Shown here: in pieces, positions 8,001 to 26,698 of the stretch
Numbering within the stretch: the stretch's first letter is position 1
How the letters are laid out: each line of letters opens with the position of its first letter
Assembly (NCBI GenBank): GCA_965116885.1
Contig: OZ220741.1
Location: forward strand, 2,432,001-2,496,000
From: Candidatus Latescibacterota bacterium
GTDB lineage: Bacteria; Latescibacterota; UBA2968
DNA: 64,000 nucleotides
Direction: 5' to 3'
The notes under the pieces: model-generated
What the model was told of the DNA's origin: nothing
Seen by the model: only the letters and a program-made list of their open reading frames with translations
The model's database searches: none
Program-made: the position numbers and the translations under genes

Positions 8001-8897
8001 ATGGGAAAGAAACGGATTAACAGATGTATCGAGCTTCTCGAACAGGGCGAGTATCTCTATTATACGGGTGCTGGCCCTCTTACGTATGAGAATGGGAAGA
8101 AGCAGGCGGGGACATGGGCGGATTTTTTGATGGTGGATTACGAGCACAGTCCGTTTGATGTGGTTGGTCTTCGCGCGTTTATGCAGGGGCTGGTGGATGG
8201 CGGTCCCACAAATTCGGGACATCGCACGCCGACTGTGTTTGCGACGTTGCCGTCCAATTGTCGCACTGTGCATGAGGTTCGCGCCAATGCGTGGCAGGTC
8301 AGGCATGTTTTGAGTGCGGGGGTACACGGTATTTTGCATACGCATGCGAGACAGGCCGATGCGGTGAGGGCGTTTGTCGAGGAGTGCAGGTATCCCTTCC
8401 AGACAGCTGGGCTGGATCGCGGGCTGGTGCAGGGGCAGCGCGGGGCGGGTGGTCAGGGATATGCTGCGGGTATCTGGGGGCTTAAAGGACCGGAGTACAC
8501 GCAGGTAGCGGATCCGTGGCCGCTGAATCCAGATGGTGAGTTGATGCTGGGGCTTAAAATTGAGGACAGGGAGTGCGTTGCAAATGCCGAGTATATATGC
8601 AAGGTGCCGGGGCTGGCATTTGCGGAGTGGGGACCGGGGGATATGGGCATGTCCTACGGTTTTGCCGATGCACACGATCCGCCGTATCCGCCGGTTATGG
8701 AGGAGGCGCGAAGTATTGTGAAGGGTGCGTGTGATGAGAATGGGATCCATTTTTTGTGTTCGTGGAAGGATTCTTCAAAGAGTGCGGAAGAGAATATTCG
8801 GTTTTTGATGGATTGGGGCGTCAGGATTCTCTCTGGTGGGGGAGAAGATCAGGCGCGTATCGGTCGCGCGATTTCAGGTAGGCAGATGCCTGTGTGA
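8001..8897 (+). CDS. HpcH/HpaI aldolase/citrate lyase family protein
   Basis: VDYEHSP, KIED, EWGPGDMGMS motifs. Confidence 0.8.
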   Translation: MGKKRINRCIELLEQGEYLYYTGAGPLTYENGKKQAGTWADFLMVDYEHSPFDVVGLRAFMQGLVDGGPTNSGHRTPTVFATLPSNCRTVHEVRANAWQVRHVLSAGVHGILHTHARQADAVRAFVEECRYPFQTAGLDRGLVQGQRGAGGQGYAAGIWGLKGPEYTQVADPWPLNPDGELMLGLKIEDRECVANAEYICKVPGLAFAEWGPGDMGMSYGFADAHDPPYPPVMEEARSIVKGACDENGIHFLCSWKDSSKSAEENIRFLMDWGVRILSGGGEDQARIGRAISGRQMPV

Positions 8898-8911
8898 GGG
8901 AGGAGAGATCG

Positions 8912-10351
8912 ATGGGAAAGAAGCCCAATATTCTGTTCATTTTTAGCGATCAACACCGCCACGATGTGCTCGGCTGTGCCGGGCATCCGTTGGTTCAGAC
9001 GCCGAATCTGGATCGATTGGCGGATTGGGGCATGCGTTTTGAGCGGACGTGGACGCAGTGTCCGGTTTGTATGCCGTGCAGGGCTACGATGATTACGGGG
9101 CGATATACGCATGAGTTGGGGTTTACGTCTAATGTTACGGCTGATCGCGGGGATACGGTTGATGATAGTCCTTTTAAGTCCGCATGGCCGACGATTATGA
9201 AGCAGTTGCAGGGCGGGGGGTATGAGACTGCGTCGATTGGCAAGACGCATTATCACGGGCGGCCCGGTTCTCAGGAGGCGGGAGAACGCGGGGAGCGTTT
9301 CGATACGCGGCAGTTTGGGGATTATGTGAAAGGTTTTGGGTGGGATTATGTGATGGAGGAATACGACCGGTATGGACATGTTCAGAGCCATGTGAAAAGT
9401 CCGTATATGGATTTTCTCGAAGCGCGAGGGCTTCTGGAGGCACATCAGGAACAGATCAGAGGGATTTACAGGCTTACGCCCACGCACTGGCGAGGCGAGA
9501 CGAGTGTGTTGCCGCAAGAGTGCGAGTTGTCCAGTTTTATTGCCGATCACGCGATGGATTGGTTGCAGTCGCGCGATTCCGAGAAGCCGTTTTATCTTCA
9601 TCTGGGTTTTGTGCAGCCGCATGTTCCGCTGATGGATGACCCGATTTGGGCGGCTTATTATGCAGATGCGGATATCGAATTGCCGGATATGACGATGCCG
9701 AGCGCCACGAATGAGGTTTGGGCAGGAAAGGTCGAACGGCTCAAGGGGCATTCTCAGGTTCAGACGATGACGGATGATTTTGTGCGCGAGGGCATCAGGC
9801 ATTATCTGGGTGCTGTTTCTCTGGTTGATCAGAAGATTGGCGAGGTGATTGATACGCTGGATGCGTTGGGGGAACTGGATAATACGTGGATTATTTACAG
9901 CGCGGACCACGGCGAGATGCTCGGCGAACACCATTTGTGGGCAAAGCACTGTTTTTACGAGGGTTCGGTTCAGGTTCCGCTGATTGTCAGTCCGCCGGAT
10001 CGCAAGAGCAGAGGGGTTTGTGGCGATCTCACGCAGTTGATCGATGTGGTTTCGACAATTGCAGATATTGGGCAGGTGGAACCGCCCGAATGTGCCCGCG
10101 GGCAGTCTTTGTTGCCGTTGTTGGAACGCGGTTCTGGTGGATATGAGTATGTGTTTTCGACGATTGAGGATTGGACCGGGGTGCGGAATGAAGGCTATCG
10201 CTTTACGCTGCATGTTCCAACGGAGACGCCCTGTGAGTTGTACGATCTGGCGAGAGATCCGGGCGAGTTGAATAATTGTGTGGAAGATCCCGCCTATGGG
10301 GAAGTCGTGGCTGAACTGAGAGAGGTCGTTTTGGACCATCGCGCGGGTTGA
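8912..10351 (+). CDS. Formylglycine-dependent sulfatase
   Basis: KPNILFIFSDQHR, CxPxR (CMPCR) + TGRY, GKTH, PHVP, SADHGEMLG motifs. Confidence 0.92.
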   Translation: MGKKPNILFIFSDQHRHDVLGCAGHPLVQTPNLDRLADWGMRFERTWTQCPVCMPCRATMITGRYTHELGFTSNVTADRGDTVDDSPFKSAWPTIMKQLQGGGYETASIGKTHYHGRPGSQEAGERGERFDTRQFGDYVKGFGWDYVMEEYDRYGHVQSHVKSPYMDFLEARGLLEAHQEQIRGIYRLTPTHWRGETSVLPQECELSSFIADHAMDWLQSRDSEKPFYLHLGFVQPHVPLMDDPIWAAYYADADIELPDMTMPSATNEVWAGKVERLKGHSQVQTMTDDFVREGIRHYLGAVSLVDQKIGEVIDTLDALGELDNTWIIYSADHGEMLGEHHLWAKHCFYEGSVQVPLIVSPPDRKSRGVCGDLTQLIDVVSTIADIGQVEPPECARGQSLLPLLERGSGGYEYVFSTIEDWTGVRNEGYRFTLHVPTETPCELYDLARDPGELNNCVEDPAYGEVVAELREVVLDHRAG

Positions 10352-15373: not shown

Positions 15374-16285
15374 ATGCGTCGCTTCACGCGTACGCCCTAT
15401 TATAGCGGGCCGGATGACCCGGCTATTGGCGAGGTGCGAGGTACGCTTGCTCTGGGCGAAACCGTGGTTATTGAGACCATTGGTGGGGCTGATAATGATT
15501 TTGAGGCTGCTGGTGAGGTTCGTGCGGGGATGATTACTTCTGGAGAAAGTCACCGCCGATACGCCCGTCGTGGTGGTCCTTTTCGCATTGAGGGGATTGC
15601 GCCGGATGACTGGGTCGCTATTGAGATTATCGATATTGAGGTGGGGCCTTACGGTTTTTATCGCAACGGAGGGCCGAACTGGGGCAATTGGCGCTGCGTT
15701 GCGCCGGTGCGCGATGGGTTGATCCACTTTCCGCCGGATTTTGTGGTGCCGGTGCGGCCTATGGTTGGCGTGGTTCAGTTGGAACCGTGGGCTGCCCATT
15801 CTATTGATCACGGCGGTAATATGGATTTTAATGCGGTGCAGCCGGGTAGTACTGTGCATATTCGCGCCCAAAAGCCCGGGGGGTTGCTCTCTTTGGGCGA
15901 TGTCCATGCGCGGATGGGCGATGGCGAGTTGACAGGTGCTGGTGTGGAGATCGACGCGGCGGTGACTATAAGAGTGGATCGTTCGCCCGGGTTTCCCAAT
16001 AGCAGTCCGGTGGTGGAGACAACCAGAGTGGTAGAAGCCGCTGAGGAGTATCTGACCAGTGCTCGGGCGACTGAGTGGGGCGAGGCTCTCAGGCTGGCCT
16101 GGTTGGAGATGGTGGCTCTGATTATCGATCGCTACGATACGACGTACGAATACGCCAATATGATCGTGGGGACGATTGGCGATGCGCGGCCCGGCTTTGC
16201 CACGGGCTATATGGGTAGCTATGTCACATGTCAGATTGCAGTGACCAAAGAATTGCGGCGCACCGGGGTGCCGTACGAGGCGTAG
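15374..16285 (+). CDS. Acetamidase/formamidase family protein
   Basis: HGGNMD, SLGDVHARMGDGEL..GVE motifs; AAGGAG RBS. Confidence 0.85.
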   Translation: MRRFTRTPYYSGPDDPAIGEVRGTLALGETVVIETIGGADNDFEAAGEVRAGMITSGESHRRYARRGGPFRIEGIAPDDWVAIEIIDIEVGPYGFYRNGGPNWGNWRCVAPVRDGLIHFPPDFVVPVRPMVGVVQLEPWAAHSIDHGGNMDFNAVQPGSTVHIRAQKPGGLLSLGDVHARMGDGELTGAGVEIDAAVTIRVDRSPGFPNSSPVVETTRVVEAAEEYLTSARATEWGEALRLAWLEMVALIIDRYDTTYEYANMIVGTIGDARPGFATGYMGSYVTCQIAVTKELRRTGVPYEA

Positions 16286-16323
16286 GGGTTTTGAAGTTTA
16301 CAACATTCACGAAAGGATTTGCT

Positions 16324-17097
16324 ATGTATTTGTACGGGATTCGCAATGCGAGTTTGAATATGGATTGGGGAAAAGATGCTTTTGCCACAGCAGGGGATAT
16401 TGGGTTTGATGGGGTGGAGATTGTGCTGCGGGAGGAGGAGCGGTTGGATTGGCTTTTAAGTGCTGCGGGCCGGGAAGAGGTTGGGAGGTGGGTTGAGGAG
16501 ACGGGCGCGCAAGCGTGTTCAATAAGTTTTGCCCTGTTTCGAGAATACAAGGGGAATGAGGAAGATGAGGCTGTGCGCGATCGCGTGGTGGAGCTTGTGC
16601 AAAAGGCGATCCGCGCGTGTAAGGGGATGGGCGGTGTCGGTATTTTGCTTCCGTATTTTGATGCGGAGAATCGCGATATGTCGAGCGCGCATGCAGAATT
16701 GTTGATTGAAGACATGAAGCGATGCGCTCCTGTCGCCGAAGACGAGGGCATTAAGGTTGCTCTGGAGACGAGTTTTTCACCGGGATTGTTGAGGACGATT
16801 TGCGATGGCGTGGGGTCTGAGATGGTGGGGGTGTATCAAGATACGGCCAATGCGCTGCAATACGGGTACGATTCGGTCGATATGCTCGTTACGTTACCGG
16901 AACACACACAATTGATTCATATTAAAGATACGCGGCGTTCTGATCTGGGCGAGGGCGATGTGGATTTTCCCGCGTGTCGAGATGCGATTGCACAGATCGG
17001 TTATGAGGGGTGGCTGATTTTTGAAACGCCAGGAGGTGCAGATCCTGCGGCATCGGGTAAGAAGAATTTGGCGTTTGCAAAAGAGATGTTCGGGTAG
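16324..17097 (+). CDS. Sugar phosphate isomerase/epimerase (xylose isomerase-like TIM barrel)
   Basis: GFDGVE, ALET, DTAN, HIKD, GEGDVDF, GYEGWLIFE motifs. Confidence 0.85.
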   Translation: MYLYGIRNASLNMDWGKDAFATAGDIGFDGVEIVLREEERLDWLLSAAGREEVGRWVEETGAQACSISFALFREYKGNEEDEAVRDRVVELVQKAIRACKGMGGVGILLPYFDAENRDMSSAHAELLIEDMKRCAPVAEDEGIKVALETSFSPGLLRTICDGVGSEMVGVYQDTANALQYGYDSVDMLVTLPEHTQLIHIKDTRRSDLGEGDVDFPACRDAIAQIGYEGWLIFETPGGADPAASGKKNLAFAKEMFG

Positions 17098-17099
17098 GC

Positions 17100-17192
17100 T
17101 GGCAGAGGGAGGGGGACTCGAACCCCATGCGAAAATTCGCACGCGGGCTTGTGTTTTGCTGCCCGCGGCCCACCTTGGACCGTTCACCCCCT
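17100..17192 (-). ncRNA. tRNA-like RNA copy A (93 nt; 8/4 fold, long variable arm, 3' GCCA, 12-nt loop in place of the anticodon loop)
   Basis: Reverse complement: AGGGGGUG AAC GGUCCAAGGUGGGCC GCGGGC-AGCAAAACACAA-GCCCGC GUGCGAAUUUUCGCAU GGGG-UUCGAGU-CCCC CUCCCUCU G CCA. Confidence 0.85.
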
Positions 17193-17212
17193 GCATTGAT
17201 GCTGTTATTTTT

Positions 17213-17299
17213 TGGCAGAGGGTGAGGGACTCGAACCCTGTGCGGTTGCCCGCACCACCGACCAATGTCAGGCGGCCCACCACGAACCGTTCACCCCCT
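17213..17299 (-). ncRNA. tRNA-like RNA copy B (87 nt; 8/4 fold, long variable arm, 3' GCCA, bulged anticodon-position stem with 4-nt loop)
   Basis: Reverse complement: AGGGGGUG AAC GGUUCGUGGUGGGCC GCCUGAC-AUUG-GUCGGUG GUGCGG-GCAA-CCGCAC AGGG-UUCGAGU-CCCU CACCCUCU G CCA. Confidence 0.87.
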
Positions 17300-17323
17300 A
17301 CCTATTTTGACAAGTCTGTACGC

Positions 17324-18313
17324 TTAAAGGTTTCTCCCAACAGTACGTTCAGGGCGCAGTTCCCCCAGGGATTGTTCACCGGGTTGGATATATTCTACGG
17401 CTGGGCTTTCGATGCGCCCATAGGCATTCCACACTTTGAATCCGAGCAAAGAGAGAAGATCGGGCGATGCCTCGGCGAGGACGTCGGGAGCCGTGCCTAC
17501 GGTAAAATTTTCCTGTGGACGGAACTGGGGTCCGCAGAATGTGGTGAGTATGGCCCAGCGCAGTTGATCGCTTATATTGGCTCCTGTGCCGTGCCAGATG
17601 CGTCCGTCAAGGAATCCAACTGTGCCGGCTGGCCCTTCGAGGGCGACTGTTTCAGTGGTGTTGTCATCGGGATTGTCAGGACGGCGTCCCCATAGGTGAC
17701 TACCGGGTACGATGCGGGTGCCGCCGTTTTCTGCTGTGAAGTCGCCGATCATCCAGACCACGTTGATGACGACGCGGGGCCAGATGGATGCGGTATCGGA
17801 TTCGTCTGTTTGTTCGCGGGTGATAGAGCCTGCGGGTAAATGCGTTCGGTCAGCGCGCGTTGGCATGGGCATCCACCACTGGTCTGTGTGCAGGCGCATG
17901 GGAACGCCGCCGGGTTTGGCGATGTTGGCCGAATGGCTCGATAGCAGATAATCATTGCCCAGTGCGTGATCCACGATGTTGCGGACTCCTGAATGTAATA
18001 GCATGTCTTGAAATACCCGACCTTTGTTGATCAGCATCCACACGCGCTGGTTGACACCTCCTGCAGATTGTGTAAACGCCCCCGCGCGTACCTGCCCTTT
18101 TTTATTTCGAAAATCCCCCCAGTTTTGTTTTGCACCTCCGTCTTCAAATGCGAGCCCGCGTTGTTTTTCGGCTATGGCCTGTTCTTTTAGACGGGTTTTT
18201 ATTTTTGAGAGATCTTCCGCGCTGAGGGCGTTGGCAAGCAGGCCATAACCGTAGGTATCGAGTTGTGTTTTGACCTGTGTGAGGTCTTCGGTTGGTTGTG
18301 GAAGTTCAGACAT
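17324..18313 (-). CDS. Phytanoyl-CoA dioxygenase (PhyH) family 2OG-Fe(II) oxygenase
   Basis: HxD (LHTD), NGGTRIVPGSH, WHGTG..R motifs. Confidence 0.88.
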   Translation of the reverse strand: MSELPQPTEDLTQVKTQLDTYGYGLLANALSAEDLSKIKTRLKEQAIAEKQRGLAFEDGGAKQNWGDFRNKKGQVRAGAFTQSAGGVNQRVWMLINKGRVFQDMLLHSGVRNIVDHALGNDYLLSSHSANIAKPGGVPMRLHTDQWWMPMPTRADRTHLPAGSITREQTDESDTASIWPRVVINVVWMIGDFTAENGGTRIVPGSHLWGRRPDNPDDNTTETVALEGPAGTVGFLDGRIWHGTGANISDQLRWAILTTFCGPQFRPQENFTVGTAPDVLAEASPDLLSLLGFKVWNAYGRIESPAVEYIQPGEQSLGELRPERTVGRNL

Positions 18314-18342
18314 GCGTATTCCTCAGATTTGGATAGTCGATA

Positions 18343-19644
18343 TTATCGGGGCAAAATGCCGTACTGGCGCAGGGTGCTTTCCAGTGTTGGCTTACTAAGG
18401 CGAATGCGGTCGTCGTTTAACAAATAGGAGAAGACGTAGCCGAGGCCGAGCATAAAAATTCCGATCAAGAAGCAATATATGACTGCGCGGTCGGGGTATT
18501 CGTCTTTCAGGTATCCTACGTAAAGGGGTCCGAAGATTCCCGCTGCGGCCCAGGCGGTTAGAATTGCCCCGTAGATGTTGGACATTTTTTTGCTGCCGAA
18601 AACGTCGAGAACAAAAGATGGCATTGTGGCAAAGCCGCCGCCAAAGCACAACAGGACATAACAGACGAGCGCGGAAAAGATCCAGGGGTTGCGCTCTGTC
18701 ATTAAGATGCCGAAGACGATCATCTGGCTGGCGAGTAAAATTCTGAAGACGCCAACGCGACCTATGCGATCCGATAGCAGTCCCCAGAAGAGCCGCCCCA
18801 CGCCGTTGCACAGGGAACTGACAGCGATCAGCGTTGCTCCATATTCGGCGAGTGTTACCGGTTCCAGGGATGGATCTGCAAATCCCCAAACTTCTTGCAG
18901 GAGTTCCGACTGAAAGCTGATGACGGAGATGCCCGCGGCGATGTTGAAGAAAAATACGATCCACATGAGGGCAAATTCAGAAGACCGCAGATAGGGCGCG
19001 ACAGTGTCTTCGTATTCCATCGGTTCATCGTCAGCTACGGCGGGTACAACTGCGGCTTTGGGATCGCTCAACACAAAGCTGGAGGGCAAGAGGATACAGG
19101 CAAATACTATGCCGAGCCACAAGAAGACAAGGGTCAGATCCGACTCTGTTCGCAGCACGAGAAAGGGTGCCAATACTTTGCTCAAGAGAAATGCACCCAC
19201 GCCAAATCCCATCACGACGATGCCTGTCACCAGACCCTTGCGATCTGGAAACCACTTTGCCGCGGTTGCAACTGGCGTTACATAGCCAAGTCCAATTCCC
19301 GCACCTCCGATAACGCCATATCCCAGGTAAAAGAGTGGGATAAAGTCCAGATGAAGGGCGAGGCTCGCGATCATATATCCGCCGGAAAACATGATGCTGC
19401 CCGCGACTGCGAGTTTGCGGGGTCCGAATCGCGGTAGCGTCGCGCCTGCCCAGGCTGCGGATGTGCCGAGTGAAAAGATGGCGATGCTAAAAGCCCAGGC
19501 GGTTTCTGTGAATGTCCAGCCGAGTTGCCTGACCAGGAGCGTTTGAAAGAAGCTCCACGCGTACACGGTGCCGAAACAGAGTTGCAGGAGCGTGCATAAG
19601 AGCGCGATGACTGAACGCGGGATCTGTATTTCTCGGATTGGCAT
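18343..19644 (-). CDS. OFA family MFS transporter (oxalate/formate antiporter-like)
   Basis: About 12 TM; GTVYAWS, KWFPDRKGL..G..VMGFG, GRLFWG..SDRIGR. Confidence 0.85.
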   Translation of the reverse strand: MPIREIQIPRSVIALLCTLLQLCFGTVYAWSFFQTLLVRQLGWTFTETAWAFSIAIFSLGTSAAWAGATLPRFGPRKLAVAGSIMFSGGYMIASLALHLDFIPLFYLGYGVIGGAGIGLGYVTPVATAAKWFPDRKGLVTGIVVMGFGVGAFLLSKVLAPFLVLRTESDLTLVFLWLGIVFACILLPSSFVLSDPKAAVVPAVADDEPMEYEDTVAPYLRSSEFALMWIVFFFNIAAGISVISFQSELLQEVWGFADPSLEPVTLAEYGATLIAVSSLCNGVGRLFWGLLSDRIGRVGVFRILLASQMIVFGILMTERNPWIFSALVCYVLLCFGGGFATMPSFVLDVFGSKKMSNIYGAILTAWAAAGIFGPLYVGYLKDEYPDRAVIYCFLIGIFMLGLGYVFSYLLNDDRIRLSKPTLESTLRQYGILPR

Positions 19645-19646
19645 TT

Positions 19647-20363
19647 TTATGTGTCCGATTGATCGCTTTTTTCACCTTCAGAAATATAGAGAAAGAGATT
19701 GGCCAGGTGTCCGACCTCGTCGTCGCGCGATAGCAGTTTGTCGTCTGAGGTCCCCTCCTCACCGCGCGCGCGACCCACTGCATAAGCGAGGAGATCGCCG
19801 AGGGGGTTCGCCGCGAGGTTGACGAGCCATATCGCGGCAAAGAAGCCTACCACGAGTATGATGCAGATGAGATAGACCTGTCTTCCGATTGCTCTTTGAA
19901 TTTTTAGTGCAATCAGTCCCGTGTCCATGCCAACGTGAACCGTGCCGGCAATGCCTGCCAGAATGGGACTGCCCACTTCTACGAAATCGCCCATTCCGGG
20001 TAGATTGCGTTCTATGGCTTCTGTCTTGAATGGGTCGTCCGCTCGAATGACTTCGGGAATGCCAGGCACGAATGTGTGGGCGAGAAATTCACCTGATTCA
20101 TCTGTAATATAGATGTATTTGATGCTCTGGATTTCGACGAATTGATCGATGAGCGACTGCAGAGCCGCGAGGTCCCGATTTAAGAGAATATCGACACTGG
20201 AGTCGGCGATGGTCTTCGCGATGTTTTTGCTGTTGTTCTCGTATTCTTCCGACAGGTGTGTATCGACTGTGTAAATACACAGGGCGGATGTTGACAGGCT
20301 GATCACACCGAATAGCGCGAAGATGCCGAACCGGGTTTTTTGAAAGAGTTTTTTGATTTTCAT
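19647..20363 (-). CDS. Two-TM sensor-like membrane protein ending in a HAMP-like segment, no kinase domain
   Basis: TM - extracytoplasmic domain - TM - 'RDDEVGHLA..F' then stop; ATGA overlap with upstream gene. Confidence 0.7.
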   Translation of the reverse strand: MKIKKLFQKTRFGIFALFGVISLSTSALCIYTVDTHLSEEYENNSKNIAKTIADSSVDILLNRDLAALQSLIDQFVEIQSIKYIYITDESGEFLAHTFVPGIPEVIRADDPFKTEAIERNLPGMGDFVEVGSPILAGIAGTVHVGMDTGLIALKIQRAIGRQVYLICIILVVGFFAAIWLVNLAANPLGDLLAYAVGRARGEEGTSDDKLLSRDDEVGHLANLFLYISEGEKSDQSDT

Positions 20364-21682
20364 TTTTTGCCAAACCTGTCTTCCCAGTTATCCAGCGTGA
20401 CAAAACGGTCGTTTTCGACAACTGTGTAATAGACTCGCTGTAGTCCTTGTCGTCGGTCTGGGCCAAAAGAGACCTGTTCGCCGATGCCCAGATCGAAATC
20501 TCGAATGCTGAAGACCGCGTCTTCAAGCTGGCTACGCTGCGGGTCGTCGCCGATGCGGCGCAGAATTTCAACCATCAATTTGGCGTTGAGAAATCCCTCG
20601 AGGCTGACAAAGCTTTGCGCGAAGGGTGTATAGTCTTCTTTCACCAGTTCTTCGGGGGGTTGCGGGGCGTATTGTTGCATCATTTCGCGGTACTCTTTTA
20701 CGGCTGGCGTGGATGTTTCTTCGTAACTGGGCACGACCTGAGAGTTTACGAGCAGTTGCGTATATGACTCGCTGTTTTCTTGTCCTTCGGTGAGGAGTTT
20801 TAAGAGGTTTTCACTGCCAACAAAGGACAGGTTGGCAATGGGAACCCGCAGGCCGAGGTTAACGGCGTCGCGCACAAAGGCCGCACAAGCCGCATAAGCG
20901 CCGATGCAGATTACCGCTTCCGGGTCTGATGCTTTTAGTATTTCGACCTGTTTTCGCATGCTGCCGGTGAATTTTTCTCCGCGGTGGTACGTGGCTTCGC
21001 CCGCTATTTGTTCTCCATGCCGCTTCAAGGCACTTCTTACGCCCGCCCATCCGCTGCGACCATAAGCATCGGCTTGATAGAATACGGCAATGCGTTTTCG
21101 GTTGATGCGAACAAAATTATCCACGAGACCGGCGGTTTCCTGGCGGTAGGAAGCGCGCAGATTAAAGGCGAAGTCGCCATAAGGCGGTTCTCGCTGCGGT
21201 TGTGCGCCGGTGAATGGAAAGAATAAGAAGATGTTTTTGTCCTGGAATTTTTTGAGCATGGGGAGTACGCGGGTTACGGTGGGCGTTCCGACATAACCGA
21301 AGAGCAAAAATACTTCGTCTTCCAACATCAATTTCAGGGTGTTTTTGACAGAGGGGTCGGGTTGATAGCCGTCGTCGTACGTTTTGAGAACTATTTTGCG
21401 TCCCGATATGCCTCCCTGCTGATTGATGTGTGTGAAGTACGCACTGGCACCGCGATACAGTTCGATGCCCAAACCCCGGGATGGGCCGGAGAACGCGGCG
21501 GACACGCCGAGTACGATCTCGGTGTTGGTCACGCCAGATGATGTCCGTGTCATGGTGTGCCTCCTTGTTTGTGGTTCAAGCTGGCCGGTGTTGGCGACCG
21601 CTATCAGAGTTTTCAACCATGGGGCGATCGCGCAACAGGCAAGGCCGGAACGGATGAGTGCTCTTCTCGTGATTGGTTTCAT
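20360..21682 (-). CDS. Periplasmic substrate-binding protein (LivJ/branched-chain type) with twin-arginine signal
   Basis: TRRALI Tat-like motif; GVSAAFSGP, YDDGY.P, GYVGTPT, NLRASYRQE. Confidence 0.85.
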   Translation of the reverse strand: MKPITRRALIRSGLACCAIAPWLKTLIAVANTGQLEPQTRRHTMTRTSSGVTNTEIVLGVSAAFSGPSRGLGIELYRGASAYFTHINQQGGISGRKIVLKTYDDGYQPDPSVKNTLKLMLEDEVFLLFGYVGTPTVTRVLPMLKKFQDKNIFLFFPFTGAQPQREPPYGDFAFNLRASYRQETAGLVDNFVRINRKRIAVFYQADAYGRSGWAGVRSALKRHGEQIAGEATYHRGEKFTGSMRKQVEILKASDPEAVICIGAYAACAAFVRDAVNLGLRVPIANLSFVGSENLLKLLTEGQENSESYTQLLVNSQVVPSYEETSTPAVKEYREMMQQYAPQPPEELVKEDYTPFAQSFVSLEGFLNAKLMVEILRRIGDDPQRSQLEDAVFSIRDFDLGIGEQVSFGPDRRQGLQRVYYTVVENDRFVTLDNWEDRFGKK

Positions 21683-21718
21683 ACGGGATGTGCTCTTTCG
21701 CAGGATGCCCAGACTTGA

Positions 21719-22519
21719 TCATTCTTCGAGTGTTGGGCGATTTAGCCGCGTGTGATAGGGCGGTTCCATGACTGCGCGTTGTCGTTCGTTTGCCCATTCG
21801 GGTATGTCGTAGGCGCGTACATACGCCATGTTGCCAGCGGTGTAGCGGGTGAGCGTTGACCGCCGCGGGTGATCTGATTTCCAGGGCAGGGTGCCGTGTG
21901 TGACGGCTTCGGTGAAGATGATTGCGTCGCCTGCCTTACAGGTGATCTGGCGGATGTGTTCCTGGTGTTTTTGATAGAGGCGCATTTCCTGCGGACAGGG
22001 ATAATTGCTTTTGTGCGATCCGGGTATGAGAGAGAGACCGCCGTCGCCCGGGTTGACATCGGTGAGTTGGATGGAGACGACGGTGAGTCCGTTGTGCATT
22101 TTGCCATCTCTAAATATATAATACTGGTTGGGGTCAAATCCGGGTCCAGAGGAGCCGTGGAAGCGATGGCCTTCGGCGCCTTTGTCCATCCAGAGCAGAA
22201 ACATCTGGTGATCGATGCGGAAGCCTTTGCCGAGTATTTCGTTGAGATAGGGCACAATGCGGGGATGCGCCAGCATGTCGCGGAAGGGATTGCACCAGGG
22301 TTCGTCCCAGTGAATCAGGCTGCCCAATTCGCCGCGGCCATGCGTGCCTTCAAGAGCTGGTGAGTCGCCGTCGAGACGCTGTTCTCTCGGGCGAATACGC
22401 CCCTTGTCGAGGTGGCGGTCAACCGCTTCGTTCGCCAGGGCGAGTTCGTCTTCGGTCAAGACGTTTTCTACGACGAGATACCCGTTGAGGTCAAAGAGAT
22501 ATTTTTCGTTTTCGGTCAT
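21719..22519 (-). CDS. Phytanoyl-CoA dioxygenase (PhyH) family protein
   Basis: YLFDLNGYLV, GDGG..IPGSHK, GDAIIFTEAVTHGTLPW; probable ATG at 22519. Confidence 0.8.
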   Translation of the reverse strand: MTENEKYLFDLNGYLVVENVLTEDELALANEAVDRHLDKGRIRPREQRLDGDSPALEGTHGRGELGSLIHWDEPWCNPFRDMLAHPRIVPYLNEILGKGFRIDHQMFLLWMDKGAEGHRFHGSSGPGFDPNQYYIFRDGKMHNGLTVVSIQLTDVNPGDGGLSLIPGSHKSNYPCPQEMRLYQKHQEHIRQITCKAGDAIIFTEAVTHGTLPWKSDHPRRSTLTRYTAGNMAYVRAYDIPEWANERQRAVMEPPYHTRLNRPTLEE

Positions 22520-22545
22520 GGTGTTGTAGTTTCTTGTTTTGGGTT

Positions 22546-23991
22546 TTAATTTATCAGACTCGCATACGCTTCTCGCCCTTGCCGGAAGAGGTCTTTGACT
22601 TCGTCGCGTTGCTGGTCGGTGTTGTAACGACCGTATGTGTCGATCCATTTGAGCGCGTCTTCGATGCCGTTGAGAAAATACTGCGCGGATTCGTTGCGCT
22701 CGGCAGGTGGGCGGCCGCAGGTAAAATAAACAGGGCTGCTGTGTGCGTAGATCGATTGGTCAAAGCTGTCGCGCTGGTTGCCCCAGAGCCGGGCGGCGAC
22801 CCAGCCGTCGCGGTCGATGTTGACCCGGTGGCGAATGGCGCCCTCGCGTTTGCCTTCGGGATAGTTTTCCCTGTGAATGATGTGCCCGTTCATCGCGATT
22901 TCGGCGCAGTGAATGGGGTAATAGGATGTGAAGGTGGATTCTATGTCGAGCGAGCCGCCAGAGGGCAATTCAACTGTGGCGCCCATGGGGTAATCGTTTA
23001 CGTTCAGGTCAATGGCGGGACCATTGGTGATGAAGGTGTTGCCCGATTTCATACCGGCTATCCAGTTTTCGTAGGAGAACGCGCCCTGGGTGTTGACATA
23101 GACGCGGTTGTTGGAGCAGACGAACCAGTCGGTGCCGGTGGAGGCGGGCAGGGCGATGCCACAGTTGAGCAGTTTGTACCACAGGTCGTATTCGGGGTCC
23201 ATCCAGAAGGGGTCGAATAAGTTGAAGGCGTCCAGTTTGCCCAGTGCCGCGGCTATGGGGGCTTCCATGCCGCGACCATTGTGACACCATATTACAATGC
23301 CGCCCTGATCGCGGGCTTCATCACAGCAAAAGCACAGGGGGGGATAGTCGGGGTCGAATTGCGCGGTGAGGATGTGGCCGCGGCTGACGGGTTGGATGAG
23401 GTTGCGGATGTTGAGGAACATGACGTGCCCATATCCGAATCCCCAGGGCGAGTTTTCGCCGTAGTGGCGGTTTTCTTCGCCGATGTCGAGTACGTGGTGT
23501 GCGGTGGTAAATTCGTTCATTACGCCGATGGGATATTTGTTGCTGGCGTAGGGGAGTTGTCTTCTGTCGAGGACGCTTACGACGGTGACGTTGTAGCCTT
23601 CTACGCTACAGTCAACGGCGAGTCGGTCGTCGGGACGGGTTTCTTTTTCGTCGTAGTGGATGTGTGTGTTGCCCGGATACCAGTTGTTTTCCTGTGGGAT
23701 ATACCAGCGGTTGAGGGTGATTTCGACGTCTTTGACGCCGTTTTCAGGCATTTCGACTACGGTGCGGATGGGTTCGTATTCCGTGCCGCGTTCGACCAGT
23801 ATGTCGGTGCGCCCGCGCGAGGCTTGAACTTCAAATTCGCCATCGCAGAAGAAGAAGGGCGTGCCGGGTCCGCGTTTGAGCATGGCATCGCGCGGGTGGC
23901 AAAAACGACCGTTGGCGGTCAGGACGTGTACTTTGGCGTTAATTGGTTCGCCTGTCGCGCTGTCGATAATATGTCCGTGCAGGGTGCCCAT
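22546..23991 (-). CDS. CehA/McbA family metallohydrolase (PHP-like)
   Basis: GNTHIH, EENRH..YGH, WCH, ASTGTD, RVY, FITNGP, AHSSP motifs; GGAG RBS before ATG 23991. Confidence 0.8.
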   Translation of the reverse strand: MGTLHGHIIDSATGEPINAKVHVLTANGRFCHPRDAMLKRGPGTPFFFCDGEFEVQASRGRTDILVERGTEYEPIRTVVEMPENGVKDVEITLNRWYIPQENNWYPGNTHIHYDEKETRPDDRLAVDCSVEGYNVTVVSVLDRRQLPYASNKYPIGVMNEFTTAHHVLDIGEENRHYGENSPWGFGYGHVMFLNIRNLIQPVSRGHILTAQFDPDYPPLCFCCDEARDQGGIVIWCHNGRGMEAPIAAALGKLDAFNLFDPFWMDPEYDLWYKLLNCGIALPASTGTDWFVCSNNRVYVNTQGAFSYENWIAGMKSGNTFITNGPAIDLNVNDYPMGATVELPSGGSLDIESTFTSYYPIHCAEIAMNGHIIHRENYPEGKREGAIRHRVNIDRDGWVAARLWGNQRDSFDQSIYAHSSPVYFTCGRPPAERNESAQYFLNGIEDALKWIDTYGRYNTDQQRDEVKDLFRQGREAYASLIN

Positions 23992-24089
23992 AGTACGCTC
24001 CGGGTATTCGAGATGTTTCTGCAATAGCGTTTCGAGAATTCGATCAAATGTTCCTTGCAGTCCCTCTCAGAGCCGCAAGGAACGCCTGA

Positions 24090-24509
24090 TTATAAGTCGA
24101 GTTTGTCTGCAAATGCCAGCATTTTTGCTTCAACCTCCTGGGCAATCGGTTGTAGTGTTTCCTGGTCGATCTCGATTTTCTGTATCCTTTCATCCACATT
24201 TGTCGTGAGACAAAAACGCAGGTTTTGTGTCAAATCGTGCATCGCGTGCTCAATGTGGTCTCGAACCGTTCCGGGAGGATACATCCACTGTCTTGCCCGG
24301 GTCTGTTTCAGGTTGATGTGGCAATGCCCTTTCCCGCCGTGTTTTTTTGCCTCGCCAAAGCAGTCCAGACGCAAAACTTCCTGATTGTAAGCATACACAG
24401 ATGCTGCGGGACCGTAACCGGCGCGGTCGTTTCGCCAATAGACTTCCAGTCGCACATCGTCTTGTATCGGATATGTAGTCCGATCCTGTCTGCCTGGTTG
24501 TGTATCCAT
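24090..24509 (-). CDS. Hypothetical protein (about 139 aa)
   Basis: ORF with AAGGA RBS before ATG 24509; 'LRLDCF...GHCH' motif. Confidence 0.6.
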   Translation of the reverse strand: MDTQPGRQDRTTYPIQDDVRLEVYWRNDRAGYGPAASVYAYNQEVLRLDCFGEAKKHGGKGHCHINLKQTRARQWMYPPGTVRDHIEHAMHDLTQNLRFCLTTNVDERIQKIEIDQETLQPIAQEVEAKMLAFADKLDL

Positions 24510-24608
24510 GACTTTTCCTTTCTGTTGTGGCGCGTTATGGCCTGTGAGCAGCTTGGTGAATGGCGTATTTCTCCAGCACAAACTAATTTTTGGACATGTC
24601 AGTATAAT

Positions 24609-25172
24609 TCAAGAAGTAATTGCCTGTTCCGATAGTTTGCCGACAAATTCATCGGACGGCAAAATTTCGACCTCATCAACAATTTGGCGTGATAAGACAC
24701 TTCTGAGGTTGCTGAGTAAATCAATTTTCAGATTATTAAAAAATATGGCATCCTGTGTCTCATTCATGCCGCTGACGACGAGCCAGAACTTGTACTTTTT
24801 TGTTCCCAGAAGATCTCTTGCGTCTTGGCATACCGCAGATAGACGACATAATACGAGCATTGATCCATAAGCTTTTAGTCGATTTTCCTGGCGGATGTAC
24901 CTATCGATAAATTGCTTTTGATCGGTGCTTTCGAGATAATGATATTCGTTTTGCAAATCCCTGTGCTGATCTATAAGCTTGGTTTCTTCGATCAAGATAA
25001 TAGTATCGTCCTGGCTGAGCATAAAATAATCACAGCAATTACAAGGACCTAAACCAACATCTTTTCGCATATCAGGTTGCGGTGCTTCGCCATCCATGCG
25101 ATATGCATGGTGGTCTTGAAGAGGTGTACCAGCGAGTTCAATCGGTTCCAGGAATTTTTCGAGGTCAATCAT
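24609..25172 (-). CDS. Hypothetical protein, possible PD-(D/E)xK-like nuclease fold; partner of the upstream ATPase
   Basis: ATGA overlap with ATPase; 'CCDYF..(x8)..ILIEETK' resembles a D...ExK motif; AT-richer sequence. Confidence 0.6.
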   Translation of the reverse strand: MIDLEKFLEPIELAGTPLQDHHAYRMDGEAPQPDMRKDVGLGPCNCCDYFMLSQDDTIILIEETKLIDQHRDLQNEYHYLESTDQKQFIDRYIRQENRLKAYGSMLVLCRLSAVCQDARDLLGTKKYKFWLVVSGMNETQDAIFFNNLKIDLLSNLRSVLSRQIVDEVEILPSDEFVGKLSEQAITS

Positions 25173-26551
25173 ATCCCCTCGATGTACAGATCGGAGAACG
25201 GCTTGGTCAATTCGTGCATAATCTTTCCCATCTTCGTTTCAAAGTCCTCTTCGGTATTACTGTTCTTTACTGGAAATTGGTTGAGCGCAATGAGTTGCTC
25301 ATCGTCCGGGTTCTTCTTTACATGGACTTCCAGCCATTTGAGGATATCTACGCTGTGTGTGGCAATTACTACATTTACACCCTGACGGGACAATTCAAAG
25401 AGGCTTTCTGCCATGATGACTTGCCAGGCCGGATGCAAGTGTGCTTCTGGCTCGTCAATAAAGAGAAATGTCCCTTTATCCAGTACCTTGCGCTCAATCA
25501 GCAATGCCAGGATGCCGAGGTTGGCGATTCCCATAGCTGTGACAGGCAATGAGAAATTGCGACCATTTTCTTGGAAATACAAATTGCCTGTTTCAGAAAT
25601 TGCAATCTTTCCGTCCATGACACTTTTGCCGGTCAACTTTGCATATACATCCGGAAAGGCCATGTCTCCGGTGTATTCATACTTCAATGCTCCGACAAGA
25701 TCATAGAAATATCCCGGAACGCCGCTGAGTCGTTCTCTATCTCCGAAATGTACAGGGTGATCCCGTGCGTCTTCCAACACAGTTTTCAATTTCCAGTAAA
25801 TAGGTGATTCCAGATAGATTACTCTGGAGTATTGCTGCAAGTGCTCTATCAAGGAAATATGTGTCAGGCCTGCAAATCCCTCGTCCGATAGTTCGAATAA
25901 TCCAAACTCCCCAACTTCGACTTTTGATGGTGTTCCTTCTTCCCTTATGAGAGCAGAAATATTTGGCACTTGAAAGTTCTGAATTAAATTTTGTTCGCTT
26001 TGGTACCATATACTGGTTTCAATAAAATTTTCCGTATCCATGTGGCTAAGTTTCTCTTTTAACGCAGCCAATGAATTCATCAGGCTCTCCAAGTAGTATC
26101 TCTGTCCCCTTGCCATTTTTTTTTCGGGAAACTGTGGGATATCGGAGGCTATTTGCTCTATTTTTTTTATGTAGCTGATAAGCTCGGGAATAATTTCTTC
26201 TGAGAGAATTTCCTCATTATACAACGTTTCAATGGAAGCCGCCTTAATGAGAGCTTTTAATTTTTCAGCCTCATTTTTCATTCTAGATAACCGGGATATT
26301 GTAGCTTTATCAGAACGTGTCTCTCGATCTGGCCTCGTCATTATCATCAAGTCGCGATAAACAGGCCCAACCAGATTGTTTAGATGTGTCTCGACATGGT
26401 TTGCGTTCATTGCGTTAAAAAGTGAATACAGGAGTTTTGAAACAAAGCTCTTACCCGTATTATTTGGTCCTGCAAATACAGTGAACTGGCCGATGCTGAC
26501 TTCCGCATCTTCGAGTTTGCCGATGTTTTTGATTTTTACTTTGAAAGCCAT
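25169..26551 (-). CDS. Soluble ABC-type ATPase (AAA_15/AAA_21 family)
   Basis: KIKNIGKL, Walker A GPNNTGKS, degenerate signature TAMG, Walker B/D-loop FIDEPEAHLHP, H-loop IATHS. Confidence 0.9.
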   Translation of the reverse strand: MAFKVKIKNIGKLEDAEVSIGQFTVFAGPNNTGKSFVSKLLYSLFNAMNANHVETHLNNLVGPVYRDLMIMTRPDRETRSDKATISRLSRMKNEAEKLKALIKAASIETLYNEEILSEEIIPELISYIKKIEQIASDIPQFPEKKMARGQRYYLESLMNSLAALKEKLSHMDTENFIETSIWYQSEQNLIQNFQVPNISALIREEGTPSKVEVGEFGLFELSDEGFAGLTHISLIEHLQQYSRVIYLESPIYWKLKTVLEDARDHPVHFGDRERLSGVPGYFYDLVGALKYEYTGDMAFPDVYAKLTGKSVMDGKIAISETGNLYFQENGRNFSLPVTAMGIANLGILALLIERKVLDKGTFLFIDEPEAHLHPAWQVIMAESLFELSRQGVNVVIATHSVDILKWLEVHVKKNPDDEQLIALNQFPVKNSNTEEDFETKMGKIMHELTKPFSDLYIEGI

Positions 26552-26634
26552 GGCAGGTTTGATTGATAAGTTGGATATATGCTGTTTGTTCTGGGTATTG
26601 CCAGAATCCTATATTAAGATACATATCTCAGGAT

Positions 26635-26678
26635 AAAAAGAAAAGCCCCGCTTTGACTATTGTTTTTTTGAGCGGGGC
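26635..26678 (-). terminator. Rho-independent terminator
   Basis: GCCCCGCT...AGCGGGGC inverted repeat followed on the minus strand by TTTTCTTTTT, just after stop of 26699..28273. Confidence 0.7.
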
Positions 26679-26698
26679 GTTCTGTATTTATCCGCAGG

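What the first reader, a model, noticed from the sequence alone, without database searches (positions are those of the whole stretch)
17100..17299. Tandem pair of non-canonical tRNA-like RNAs with intact acceptor, D, V and T arms but no functional anticodon loop
Seen in sequence: two minus-strand elements (87 and 93 nt, 20-nt spacer) fold as cloverleaves. Each has an 8-bp acceptor stem (AGGGGGUG/CACCCUCU; one U.U pair in copy A), a 4-bp T stem with a canonical UUCGAGU loop, a 5-6 bp D stem containing GGUG, a 6-bp variable arm, discriminator G and encoded CCA. Nearly all differences between the copies in these stems preserve pairing (T stem G-C/A-U; V arm A-U/G-C and G.U/G-C; D stem C-G/U.G), which points to selection on structure. 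The anticodon arms are unrelated to each other and both are irregular (6-bp stem with 12-nt loop versus bulged stem with 4-nt loop). Established knowledge: 8/4 folds with long V-arms characterise allo-tRNA/selC*-type tRNAs related to tRNA-Sec. Inference: these are not decoders. They could be aminoacyl carriers for non-ribosomal chemistry, decoys for anticodon nucleases or toxins, or regulatory tRNA mimics. Standard tRNA finders may miss them or call them pseudo.
Basis: partly seen in the sequence, partly recalled or inferred. Interest (0 to 1): 0.92.

Follow-up and report, generated by a model that had tools for sequence, protein, structure and literature searches.

The report
Conserved tRNA-shaped RNAs without anticodon loops
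Two neighbouring genes encode RNAs that fold like an unusual (8/4 "allo"/selenocysteine-like) tRNA but have no usable anticodon loop, and their conservation in a dozen Latescibacterota genomes suggests a tRNA body kept for a job other than reading codons.

Summary
Window 17213-17299(-) (type A, 87 nt) and 17100-17192(-) (type B, 93 nt) fold as cloverleaves. Each has an 8-bp acceptor stem, a 6-bp D stem, a 6-bp variable arm, a 4-bp T stem with a UUCGAGU loop, discriminator G and encoded CCA.

The anticodon arm ends in a 4-nt loop (A) or a 12-nt loop (B). ARAGORN calls nothing, and Rfam gives only sub-threshold tRNA-Sec hits (32.3 and 31.0 bits; gathering score 47).

One genome scan plus a covariance model found 21 copies in the window and 11 Latescibacterota genomes, one array per genome. 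Type A is in 12 of 12 genomes and type B in 6 of 12.

Stems stay paired (98.8% of 428 cells), and 6 of 24 pairs show changes on both sides. Against the most distant syntenic genome, type A is 81/87 identical while four-fold degenerate sites are about 0.58-0.59 identical. A conserved block of about 37 nt precedes the array under three different upstream contexts.

These are therefore selected genes, not pseudogenes, and they cannot decode. They keep the marks read by anticodon-blind synthetases: long V arm and G73 for SerRS, and an unchanging G3.U70 for AlaRS.

My best reading, which is inferred, is that they are processed and charged but do not decode. This is a new variant of the allo-tRNA kind. 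Expression, charging and function are untested.

The parts
17213..17299 (-). Type A tRNA-like gene (87 nt). Acceptor 5' 17292-17299; D arm 17273-17289 (6 bp, loop GUGGU); anticodon-arm remnant 17258-17271 (5 bp, 4-nt loop AUUG); V arm 17240-17255 (6 bp, GCAA loop); T arm 17225-17239 (4 bp, UUCGAGU); acceptor 3' 17217-17224; G73 and CCA 17213-17216.
   Evidence: fold; tRNA-Sec 32.3 bits; model R1, 109.1 bits; 11 distinct type-A sequences, 319 of 319 stem cells paired; 81/87 identical to L047, 80/87 to L040.
17100..17192 (-). Type B tRNA-like gene (93 nt). Acceptor 5' 17185-17192 (U7.U66 mismatch); D arm 17166-17182; anticodon-arm remnant 17144-17165 (CGGGC/GCCCG with 12-nt loop AGCAAAACACAA); V arm 17127-17142; T arm 17112-17126; acceptor 3' 17104-17111; G73 and CCA 17100-17103.
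   Evidence: tRNA-Sec 31.0 bits; R1, 90.3 bits; mean pairwise identity 0.982 among 6 copies; alignment with the B' copies.
17193..17212 (-). 20-nt A-rich spacer between A and B; evolves fast.
   Evidence: mean pairwise identity 0.64 among 5 genomes, with indels of 18-21 nt.
17300..17336 (-). Conserved upstream block (about 37 nt, GAGAAACC..TTGTCAAAATAGGT) immediately 5' of the first element; probable promoter or leader. It overlaps the stop codon of the upstream PhyH gene.
   Evidence: present in all 12 arrays; 26-39 of 45 positions identical between three upstream contexts, while the next 45 nt upstream align at only 13/69 to 21/49 positions. No sigma-70 consensus match, so the promoter role is inferred.
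17324..18313 (-). Context only: upstream same-strand PhyH-family dioxygenase gene. Not a constant neighbour.
   Evidence: PF05721, 4.2e-22. (present in 8 of 11 loci, pseudogene-like split in L068; absent in L033, L040, L047).
16228..17097 (+). Context only: convergent xylose-isomerase-like TIM-barrel gene whose stop codon lies 2 nt from the 3' end of element B.
   Evidence: PF01261, 2.1e-37. (present in 10 of 11 loci; not in L040).

Best explanation
The two elements are genes for tRNA-shaped RNAs of the 8/4 'allo-tRNA' / tRNA-Sec-like build. The anticodon loop has been replaced by a 4-nt cap (type A) or a 12-nt loop (type B), so they cannot read codons.

Shown: they form a small array at a single locus in a clade of Latescibacterota, and purifying selection maintains the tRNA body (acceptor, D, V and T arms, the D-loop GG, the T loop and the CCA end).

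Inferred: the array is transcribed from its own conserved upstream block and cut out by the normal tRNA-processing enzymes. Each RNA is then charged by a synthetase that does not read the anticodon. That could be SerRS, through the long variable arm and G73, and/or AlaRS, through the never-changing G3.U70 with G2-C71 and G4-C69.

Inferred: the charged or chargeable RNA then works outside decoding, as an aminoacyl donor or as a sink or regulator of tRNA-binding factors. Which of these it is remains open.
For: (1) Real and conserved. Model R1 finds 21 copies (48.2-110.8 bits) in the window plus 11 Latescibacterota loci. The other 57 pattern hits score at most 33.4 bits.

(2) Structure is selected. 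98.8% of 428 stem cells are paired, 6 of 24 pairs changed on both sides, 0 of 500 shuffles reach the observed pairing or covariation score, and slid controls give 48-60%. Within type A alone, 319 of 319 cells are paired.

(3) Rate. Type A is 81/87 identical between the window and L047, where four-fold sites of two flanking genes are 0.591 (n=93) and 0.577 (n=111) identical. Among close relatives, A is 0.935 and B 0.982 identical, against four-fold sites at 0.82 and the A-B spacer at 0.64.

(4) Independent gene. The same upstream block and array sit behind PhyH, behind MFS (L033) or behind a SASA esterase (L040, L047).

(5) Not decoders. The 4-nt loop is present in 12 of 12 type-A copies (AUUG, ACUG or AUAU). 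The 12-nt loop length is kept in 8 of 8 B and B' copies.

(6) Identity marks. G73, a 6-bp V arm, G2-C71, G3.U70 and G4-C69 are present. Three other wobble pairs toggle between G.U and G-C among type-A copies, while G3.U70 never changes in A or B copies. Serine identity is independent of the anticodon, and the bacterial alanine set has no anticodon element (PMC9976931, passages). Allo-tRNAs with these marks were charged with Ser or Ala in E. coli (PMC5389517 section 16; review PMC7609411 passages).

(7) CCA is encoded in 19 of 21 copies.
Against: - No expression, processing or charging data exist.
- No sigma-70-type promoter or intrinsic terminator is detected.
- Alanine identity is incomplete: G73 instead of A73, and U instead of G20.
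- No aminoacyl-tRNA-using enzyme, aaRS paralogue or Sec gene lies near the array in any context.
- Type B is dispensable: it is absent from 6 of 12 genomes.
- The two B' copies lack an encoded CCA.
- Nine of the 11 related loci are about 90-93% identical to the window over the flanks, so most of the sample is shallow.
- The scan pattern fixed positions 3-13 and part of the T arm. Invariance there, including G3, is therefore partly ascertainment. The 3' strand with U70 was not fixed.
- An EF-Tu-compatible charged RNA without an anticodon would be a cost to the cell.
Confidence: 0.45

Rival explanations
1. An uncharged structural tRNA mimic. The RNA body binds and titrates or regulates a tRNA-binding protein, for example a toxin or enzyme acting on acceptor ends, a processing or modification enzyme, or a Sec-pathway-type factor that reads the 8-bp acceptor and 6-bp D stem. 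It carries no amino acid.
For: The selected features are all 'body' features. The type-A loop varies in sequence (AUUG, ACUG, AUAU), so it is a cap and not a binding site. Mukai et al. suggested regulatory or toxin-antitoxin-linked roles for inactive allo-tRNAs (PMC5389517 section 16).
Against: No toxin-antitoxin, defence or tRNA-enzyme gene is adjacent in any of the three contexts. The nearest defence-like gene, an AriA/HEC-02A-like ATPase, is about 8 kb away behind five metabolic genes. The encoded CCA, G73 and unchanging G3.U70 are better explained by charging.
Confidence: 0.2
2. A cis-acting DNA or RNA element rather than a gene product: a 3'-end stabiliser or RNase P processing site of the upstream mRNA, a bidirectional terminator between convergent genes, or an attachment site for integrating elements.
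For: The array lies between convergent genes, 2 nt from the stop of the downstream gene and about 25 nt from the upstream stop. The upstream side is a synteny break with deletions and replacements. An IS605-type TnpB element sits directly 3' of the element in L040.
Against: A terminator or att-site role does not explain selection on the T loop, the D-loop GG, G73 and CCA, or on all five helices. The array keeps its own upstream block under different upstream genes. No T-tract terminator is present. There is only one locus per genome, so it is not a repeated mobile sequence.
Confidence: 0.08
3. Decaying pseudogenes of an allo-tRNA or tRNA-Sec gene that merely look conserved because the genomes are close relatives.
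For: Nine of 11 loci are about 90-93% identical to the window. Type B is lost in several genomes. The L047 C copy has a 7-nt loop (AUUCUGA) on a weak stem, which looks like an intermediate. Mukai et al. report an allo-tRNA pseudogene.
Against: Type A is 93% identical where four-fold sites are about 58-59% identical. Every stem substitution among the 11 distinct type-A sequences keeps pairing, including two pairs changed on both sides. The spacer next to the elements is only 64% identical.
Confidence: 0.07
4. Genuine decoders that use non-canonical anticodon loops, for example an expanded 12-nt loop reading an unusual signal.
For: 8/4 allo-tRNAs do work in translation (PMC5389517). The 12-nt loop length is conserved.
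Against: A 4-nt loop cannot present an anticodon. I know of no precedent for a 12-nt anticodon loop decoding (recalled, not searched for specifically). The loop sequence differs at 5 of 12 positions between the two B' copies.
Confidence: 0.03

Closest known systems
(8/4) allo-tRNAs (Mukai et al. 2017, Nucleic Acids Res, PMC5389517)
   Same: 12-bp acceptor branch split 8/4, two-nucleotide linker, 6-bp D stem with a 4-5-nt loop, long V arm, G73, frequent encoded CCA, sub-threshold resemblance to the Rfam tRNA-Sec model, and G3:U70 in some members.
   Different: All 8/4 and 9/3 entries I saw in their table carry an assigned anticodon in a 7-nt loop (supplement part 1 of 25 plus term searches). 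Here the loop is 4 or 12 nt. They report Clostridia, Proteobacteria and Acidobacteria; here the phylum is Latescibacterota. None of four motifs of this family occurs in their table.
Inactive allo-tRNA(UAU) species and polycistrons of irregular tRNAs in Acidobacteria (same paper, section 16)
   Same: Allo-tRNA-like, arranged in tandem, not active in translation, and proposed to be regulatory RNAs.
   Different: Those keep an anticodon loop and deviate by stem-destabilising mutations, five-stem junctions, E-loops or G-1, and they are often next to toxin-antitoxin genes. Here all stems are intact, only the anticodon loop is lost, and no toxin-antitoxin genes are adjacent. Their Figures S5 and S6 are in a PDF that I could not read.
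Bacterial tRNA-Sec (Rfam RF01852)
   Same: 8-bp acceptor stem, 6-bp D stem with a short loop, long V arm, G73. It is the best Rfam match (29.7-41.1 bits).
   Different: Below the gathering score of 47, a 4-bp rather than 5-bp T stem, no UCA anticodon loop, and no sel genes seen in the window (the AIR-synthase-like gene is thiL, not selD).
tRNA-like domain of tmRNA
   Same: A bacterial RNA with a tRNA acceptor/T-arm module and G3.U70 that is charged without any anticodon.
   Different: tmRNA has no D, anticodon or V stems of this kind and carries an mRNA-like domain. ARAGORN finds no tmRNA here, and the elements are only 87-93 nt.
Non-decoding or dedicated tRNA-type RNAs: tRNA-Other of Bacillus cereus (cited in PMC5389517 section 16) and the cell-wall tRNA-Gly of staphylococci (recalled)
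   Same: tRNA-shaped RNAs thought to be charged but kept out of, or only marginally used in, ribosomal decoding.
   Different: Those retain a normal 7/5 cloverleaf and an anticodon loop. No sequence relationship was tested here.
Bacterial Y RNA YrlA (tRNA mimic; bioRxiv 10.1101/312249, search listing only)
   Same: A bacterial non-coding RNA with D- and T-arm mimicry, often found as tandem genes.
   Different: In YrlA the 5' and 3' ends form a Ro-binding stem, not a CCA-ended acceptor, and the gene sits beside rsr (recalled). No TROVE/Ro gene or Y-RNA Rfam hit is in the window.

Membership tests
allo-tRNA (8/4 or 9/3) | 12-bp acceptor branch composed as 8/4 or 9/3 | tested here: met
   8 acceptor and 4 T-stem pairs are kept in 21 copies. 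RNAfold offers 9/3 for type A; both arrangements are allo configurations.
allo-tRNA (8/4 or 9/3) | tRNA-Sec-like D arm (long stem, tetraloop-size loop) | tested here: met
   6-bp stem with a 4-5-nt loop in types A, B and C. Not met in the two B' copies (4-bp stem, 10-nt loop).
allo-tRNA (8/4 or 9/3) | Long variable arm and G73 or U73 discriminator | tested here: met
   6-bp V stem and G73 in all 21 copies.
allo-tRNA (8/4 or 9/3) | Anticodon stem ending in a 7-nt loop that presents an anticodon | tested here: not met
   4-nt loop in 12 of 12 type-A copies and 12-nt loop in 8 of 8 B and B' copies. Only the single C copy in L047 can form a 7-nt loop.
allo-tRNA (8/4 or 9/3) | Charged by SerRS or AlaRS and usable by EF-Tu and the ribosome | not testable with these tools
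   Needs aminoacylation and reporter assays.
tRNA-Sec (RF01852) | Score at or above the Rfam gathering threshold (47 bits) | tested here: not met
   32.3 and 31.0 bits in the window; 29.7-41.1 bits in relatives.
tRNA-Sec (RF01852) | UCA anticodon and 13-bp (8/5) acceptor branch in bacteria | tested here: not met
   No 7-nt loop; the T stem has 4 bp. The 8/5 rule for bacteria is recalled and also stated in PMC5389517 section 13.
canonical tRNA | Recognised by a tRNA finder, or by Rfam tRNA at threshold | tested here: not met
   ARAGORN finds 0 genes in the window and in 11 loci. No Rfam match at gathering. tRNAscan-SE was not available.
tmRNA | tRNA-like domain plus tag-encoding mRNA-like domain | tested here: not met
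   ARAGORN finds no tmRNA. The elements are complete 87-93-nt cloverleaves.
Y RNA / YrlA | Rfam Y-RNA match and an adjacent rsr (Ro/TROVE) gene | tested here: not met
   No Rfam hit. No TROVE domain among 62 window proteins scanned.

The most novel reading that the evidence does not exclude
Type A (and B) is a dedicated, anticodon-free aminoacyl carrier. It would be a complete tRNA body charged by an anticodon-blind synthetase (Ala through G3.U70, or Ser through the V arm and G73). It would have shed its anticodon so that the amino acid is withheld from decoding and delivered to a non-ribosomal acceptor such as cell envelope, lipid, small molecule or a tRNA-dependent amino-acid conversion. That would be a free-standing analogue of what tmRNA's tRNA-like domain and the staphylococcal cell-wall tRNA-Gly do only in part.
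Probability: 0.22. Interest if true: 0.85.

Novelty: new variant of a known kind. Interest (0 to 1): 0.62.

Why it matters
Allo-tRNAs are known, and some were suspected to be non-translational, but every catalogued one that I saw still carries an anticodon loop. Here the anticodon loop alone has been removed or replaced, while the rest of the tRNA stays under strong purifying selection across species, including the marks used by the two synthetases that ignore the anticodon.

That makes an open question directly testable: whether bacteria keep complete tRNA bodies for work outside decoding. There is a defined 87-nt RNA, clear mutational predictions (G3.U70, V arm, CCA) and a simple assay (charging by SerRS or AlaRS). 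It also shows that standard annotation is blind to such genes, and it extends the allo-tRNA kind to an uncultured phylum.

Tried and rejected
- Target search for the type-B loop. The complement of the 12-nt loop matched 9 sites in the window with up to 2 mismatches, against 9.24 expected, and the only exact site is the loop itself. No support for an antisense seed.
- Promoter and terminator scan of 16800-17600: 0 sigma-70-type promoters and 0 intrinsic terminators.
- blastn of the 200-nt array against phage records gave only three 31-34-nt T-arm matches. Against plasmid records it gave no match.
- Coding region rejected. The array fills a 226-nt gap between two well-supported genes. Presence or absence of B plus spacer is a 113-nt indel, and the spacers differ by 18-21 nt.
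- Y RNA, tmRNA, riboswitch: no Rfam support. The weak plus-strand hits (E 0.3-2.1) are mirror images of the T and V arms.
- Link to a Sec system: the only AIR-synthase-like gene in the window is thiL (318.9 bits; selD 66.5 bits against a cutoff of 125).
- Link to defence: the AriA/HEC-02A-like ATPase at 25169-26551 lies about 8 kb away behind five metabolic genes. I did not pursue it as a partner.
- Faulty computations that I do not use. The AP_endo row and three of the four 'AP_endo_close' sequences were out of frame. Only the window-L004 pair (0.828, n=128) and the window-L047 pairs are valid.
- Searches for prior description. 'tRNA-like' with 'Latescibacter' gave 0 papers. Five phrasings of 'anticodon-less' gave 38 papers; the 25 listed were mostly tmRNA or aaRS domains and none was relevant, judged from titles and abstract starts for all 25 and from passages for two. 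An 'allo-tRNA / anticodon loop / noncoding / tRNA-like' search listed 12 of 87 papers, none on such RNAs.
- Not done. The Mukai table sequences were not run through my model, because sequences from papers could not be entered. The comparison was by eye (part 1 of 25) and by motif search.

Full report
**What is there**

On the minus strand, window 17213-17299 (type A, 87 nt) and 17100-17192 (type B, 93 nt) are separated by a 20-nt A-rich spacer. Their minimum-free-energy folds are cloverleaves. Both share these features:
- an 8-bp acceptor stem (AGGGGGUG with CACCCUCU in A and CUCCCUCU in B);
- a two-nucleotide AA linker;
- a 6-bp D stem with a 5-nt loop containing GG;
- a 6-bp variable arm;
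- a 4-bp T stem with the loop UUCGAGU;
- discriminator G and encoded CCA.

The anticodon arm of A is a regular 5-bp stem (one U.G wobble, not a bulge) capped by the 4-nt loop AUUG. The anticodon arm of B is a 5-6-bp stem with the 12-nt loop AGCAAAACACAA.

Folding energies alone are unremarkable (z -1.48 and -1.94). ARAGORN reports no tRNA or tmRNA in the whole window, and Rfam reports nothing at gathering thresholds. With relaxed thresholds both elements match tRNA-Sec (RF01852) over the full model, at 32.3 and 31.0 bits against a gathering score of 47.

**Relatives**

It returned 68 loci. Eleven of them, all titled Latescibacterota or Latescibacteria MAGs and nine of them labelled 'chromosome: 1', carry true relatives. 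The other 57 are canonical tRNAs or chance matches (at most 33.4 bits with my model).

A covariance model built from 19 copies finds 21 copies at 48.2-110.8 bits in the window plus these 11 loci. ARAGORN calls none of them. There is one array per genome. Four types can be told apart:

| Type | Copies / genomes | Features |
|---|---|---|
| A | 12 of 12 genomes | 4-nt loop: AUUG, ACUG or AUAU |
| B | 6 of 12 genomes | 12-nt loop |
| B' | L004 and L047 | 4-bp D stem with a 10-nt loop, 12-nt anticodon-arm loop, A3-U70, no encoded CCA |
| C | 1 copy, L047 | Can form a 7-nt loop AUUCUGA on a weak 6-bp stem; scores 41.1 bits as tRNA-Sec |

Array orders are A-B (window, L033, L041, L048, L051), B'-B-A (L004), B'-C-A (L047) and A alone (L006, L040, L058, L064, L068). 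Type B looks like a chimera of the 5' half of A with the anticodon and V arms of B'.

**Selection**

- Over all copies, 98.8% of 428 stem cells are standard pairs. Six of 24 pairs have changes on both sides, for example acceptor pair 7 U-A/C-G, D-stem pairs, V-stem G-C/A-U and the outer T-stem pair A-U/G-C. No shuffle out of 500 reaches the observed pairing or covariation score. Sliding the 3' partners gives 48-60% pairing. That alignment was fitted to the model, which leans towards the structure.
- Within type A alone (MAFFT alignment, full five-helix structure), 319 of 319 cells pair, and two pairs are changed on both sides.
- Nine loci are close relatives of the window (about 90-93% nucleotide identity over the flanks). 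Among them, four-fold degenerate sites of the PhyH and MFS genes are 0.82 identical and the A-B spacer 0.64, while type A is 0.935 and type B 0.982 identical.
- The most informative comparison is with L047. Four-fold sites of two flanking genes are 0.591 (n=93) and 0.577 (n=111) identical, yet type A is 81/87 identical. Against L040 it is 80/87.

Type A is therefore under purifying selection of the strength expected for a working structured RNA. The pseudogene reading fails for it.

**Context**

In the window the array lies between a same-strand PhyH-family dioxygenase gene upstream and a convergent xylose-isomerase-like TIM-barrel gene, whose stop codon is 2 nt from the end of B. The surrounding genes are ordinary metabolism and transport: MFS, sCache, a periplasmic binding protein, creatininase, GFO/IDH/MocA and sulfatase.

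The upstream neighbour is not constant. PhyH is deleted in L033, and in L047 and L040 a SASA-type esterase and amidohydrolases stand there instead. In L040 an IS605-type TnpB gene follows the element.

In every case a conserved block of about 37 nt directly precedes the first element, while sequence further upstream aligns at only 13/69 to 21/49 positions. I read this block as the array's own promoter or leader. It does not match the sigma-70 consensus, and no intrinsic terminator is seen, so this remains an inference. Nothing nearby suggests a partner: no aminoacyl-tRNA-using enzyme, no aaRS paralogue, no toxin-antitoxin pair and no sel genes (the AIR-synthase-like gene is thiL).

**How it most likely works**

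Shown: a tRNA body of the 8/4 build is conserved, and the anticodon loop is absent in a conserved way, so decoding is excluded for A and very unlikely for B.

Inferred: the features kept are the ones read by the enzymes that ignore the anticodon.
- The bacterial alanine set is A73, G2-C71, G3.U70, G4-C69 and G20, with no anticodon element (PMC9976931, passages).
- The elements have G73, the long arm, G2-C71, G3.U70 and G4-C69, but not A73 or G20.
- Three other wobble pairs of type A switch freely between G.U and G-C among genomes, whereas G3.U70 never changes in any A or B copy. One caveat applies: G3 was part of the scan pattern, but U70 was not.
- Natural allo-tRNAs with these marks were charged with Ser or Ala in E. 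coli (PMC5389517 section 16 read; PMC7609411 passages).

I therefore think the RNAs are processed like tRNAs, charged, and used outside decoding. Whether as an aminoacyl donor or as a regulator or sink cannot be decided here. An uncharged mimic is the main rival.

**Comparison with what is known**

The architecture meets the structural definition of (8/4) allo-tRNAs in four of the five features I could test. It fails the fifth, an anticodon loop. Mukai et al. describe inactive allo-tRNA(UAU) species and polycistrons of irregular tRNAs, and they suggest regulatory roles. Those RNAs keep an anticodon loop and deviate elsewhere, and they come from Acidobacteria.

In their supplementary table the rows I saw all carry an anticodon, apart from a few 'tRNA0 (pseudo)' rows. 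I read part 1 of 25 and searched the rest by terms. None of four motifs of this family occurs there. Their supplementary figures are a PDF that I could not read.

Full-text searches found no paper linking tRNA-like RNAs with Latescibacteria, and none describing free-standing anticodon-less tRNA-type genes other than tmRNA (listing and two passages read). I class the finding as a new variant of a known kind.

**Limits**

- The sample is one clade, mostly shallow, and was ascertained through a fixed 5' motif.
- tRNAscan-SE and R-scape were not available.
- There are no expression data.

Noticed in passing
L040:5236-6564 (+), with hairpin at about L040:5106-5124: An IS605-type TnpB gene (OrfB_IS605, Cas12f1-like TNB and HTH domains) sits directly 3' of the type-A element. 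It is preceded by a GC-rich hairpin followed by a T-rich stretch, which could be the element's terminator or the left end of the insertion sequence.
   Followed up: partly
L047:4890-4978 (+): A third kind of copy (type C) can form a 7-nt loop AUUCUGA (anticodon UCU) on a weak 6-bp stem with three G.U pairs and one C x C. It scores 41.1 bits as tRNA-Sec. It may be close to the decoding ancestor of the family, or a still-functional allo-tRNA.
   Followed up: partly
window 24000-28000, especially 25169-26551 (-), 24609-25172 (-), 24090-24581 (-): A low-GC stretch (0.45-0.47, against about 0.52 elsewhere) holds an ABC/OLD-type ATPase matching PADLOC HEC-02A (8.1e-31), AriA of PARIS (2.5e-25) and NsnB. 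Two downstream ORFs have no family match. This is a candidate defence island and showed no link to the tRNA-like array.
   Followed up: partly
window 17324-24024 and the matching parts of L033, L058, L068, L047, L040: The region upstream of the array is a hotspot of rearrangement. PhyH is deleted in L033. The MFS and sCache genes are partly deleted in L058 and L068, and PhyH is split in L068. The whole PhyH-MFS-sCache-binding-protein block is replaced by esterase and amidohydrolase genes in L047 and L040.
   Followed up: partly
window 1-64000: GC skew is positive in 31 of 32 2-kb windows (0.04 to 0.34, -0.03 at 24001-26000) and AT skew is negative in 31 of 32 (down to -0.35), regardless of gene orientation. 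This is an unusually large strand asymmetry.
   Followed up: no
window 8849-10339 (-) against 8894-10351 (+): Two long ORFs overlap almost completely on opposite strands. The plus-strand one is a sulfatase (PF00884, 2.3e-47). The 496-aa minus-strand one has no family match and is probably a shadow ORF.
   Followed up: no
window 17300-17336 (-): The conserved upstream block contains TTGA...TCAA in most genomes and overlaps the stop codon of the PhyH gene. It fits no promoter consensus that I could test.
   Followed up: partly
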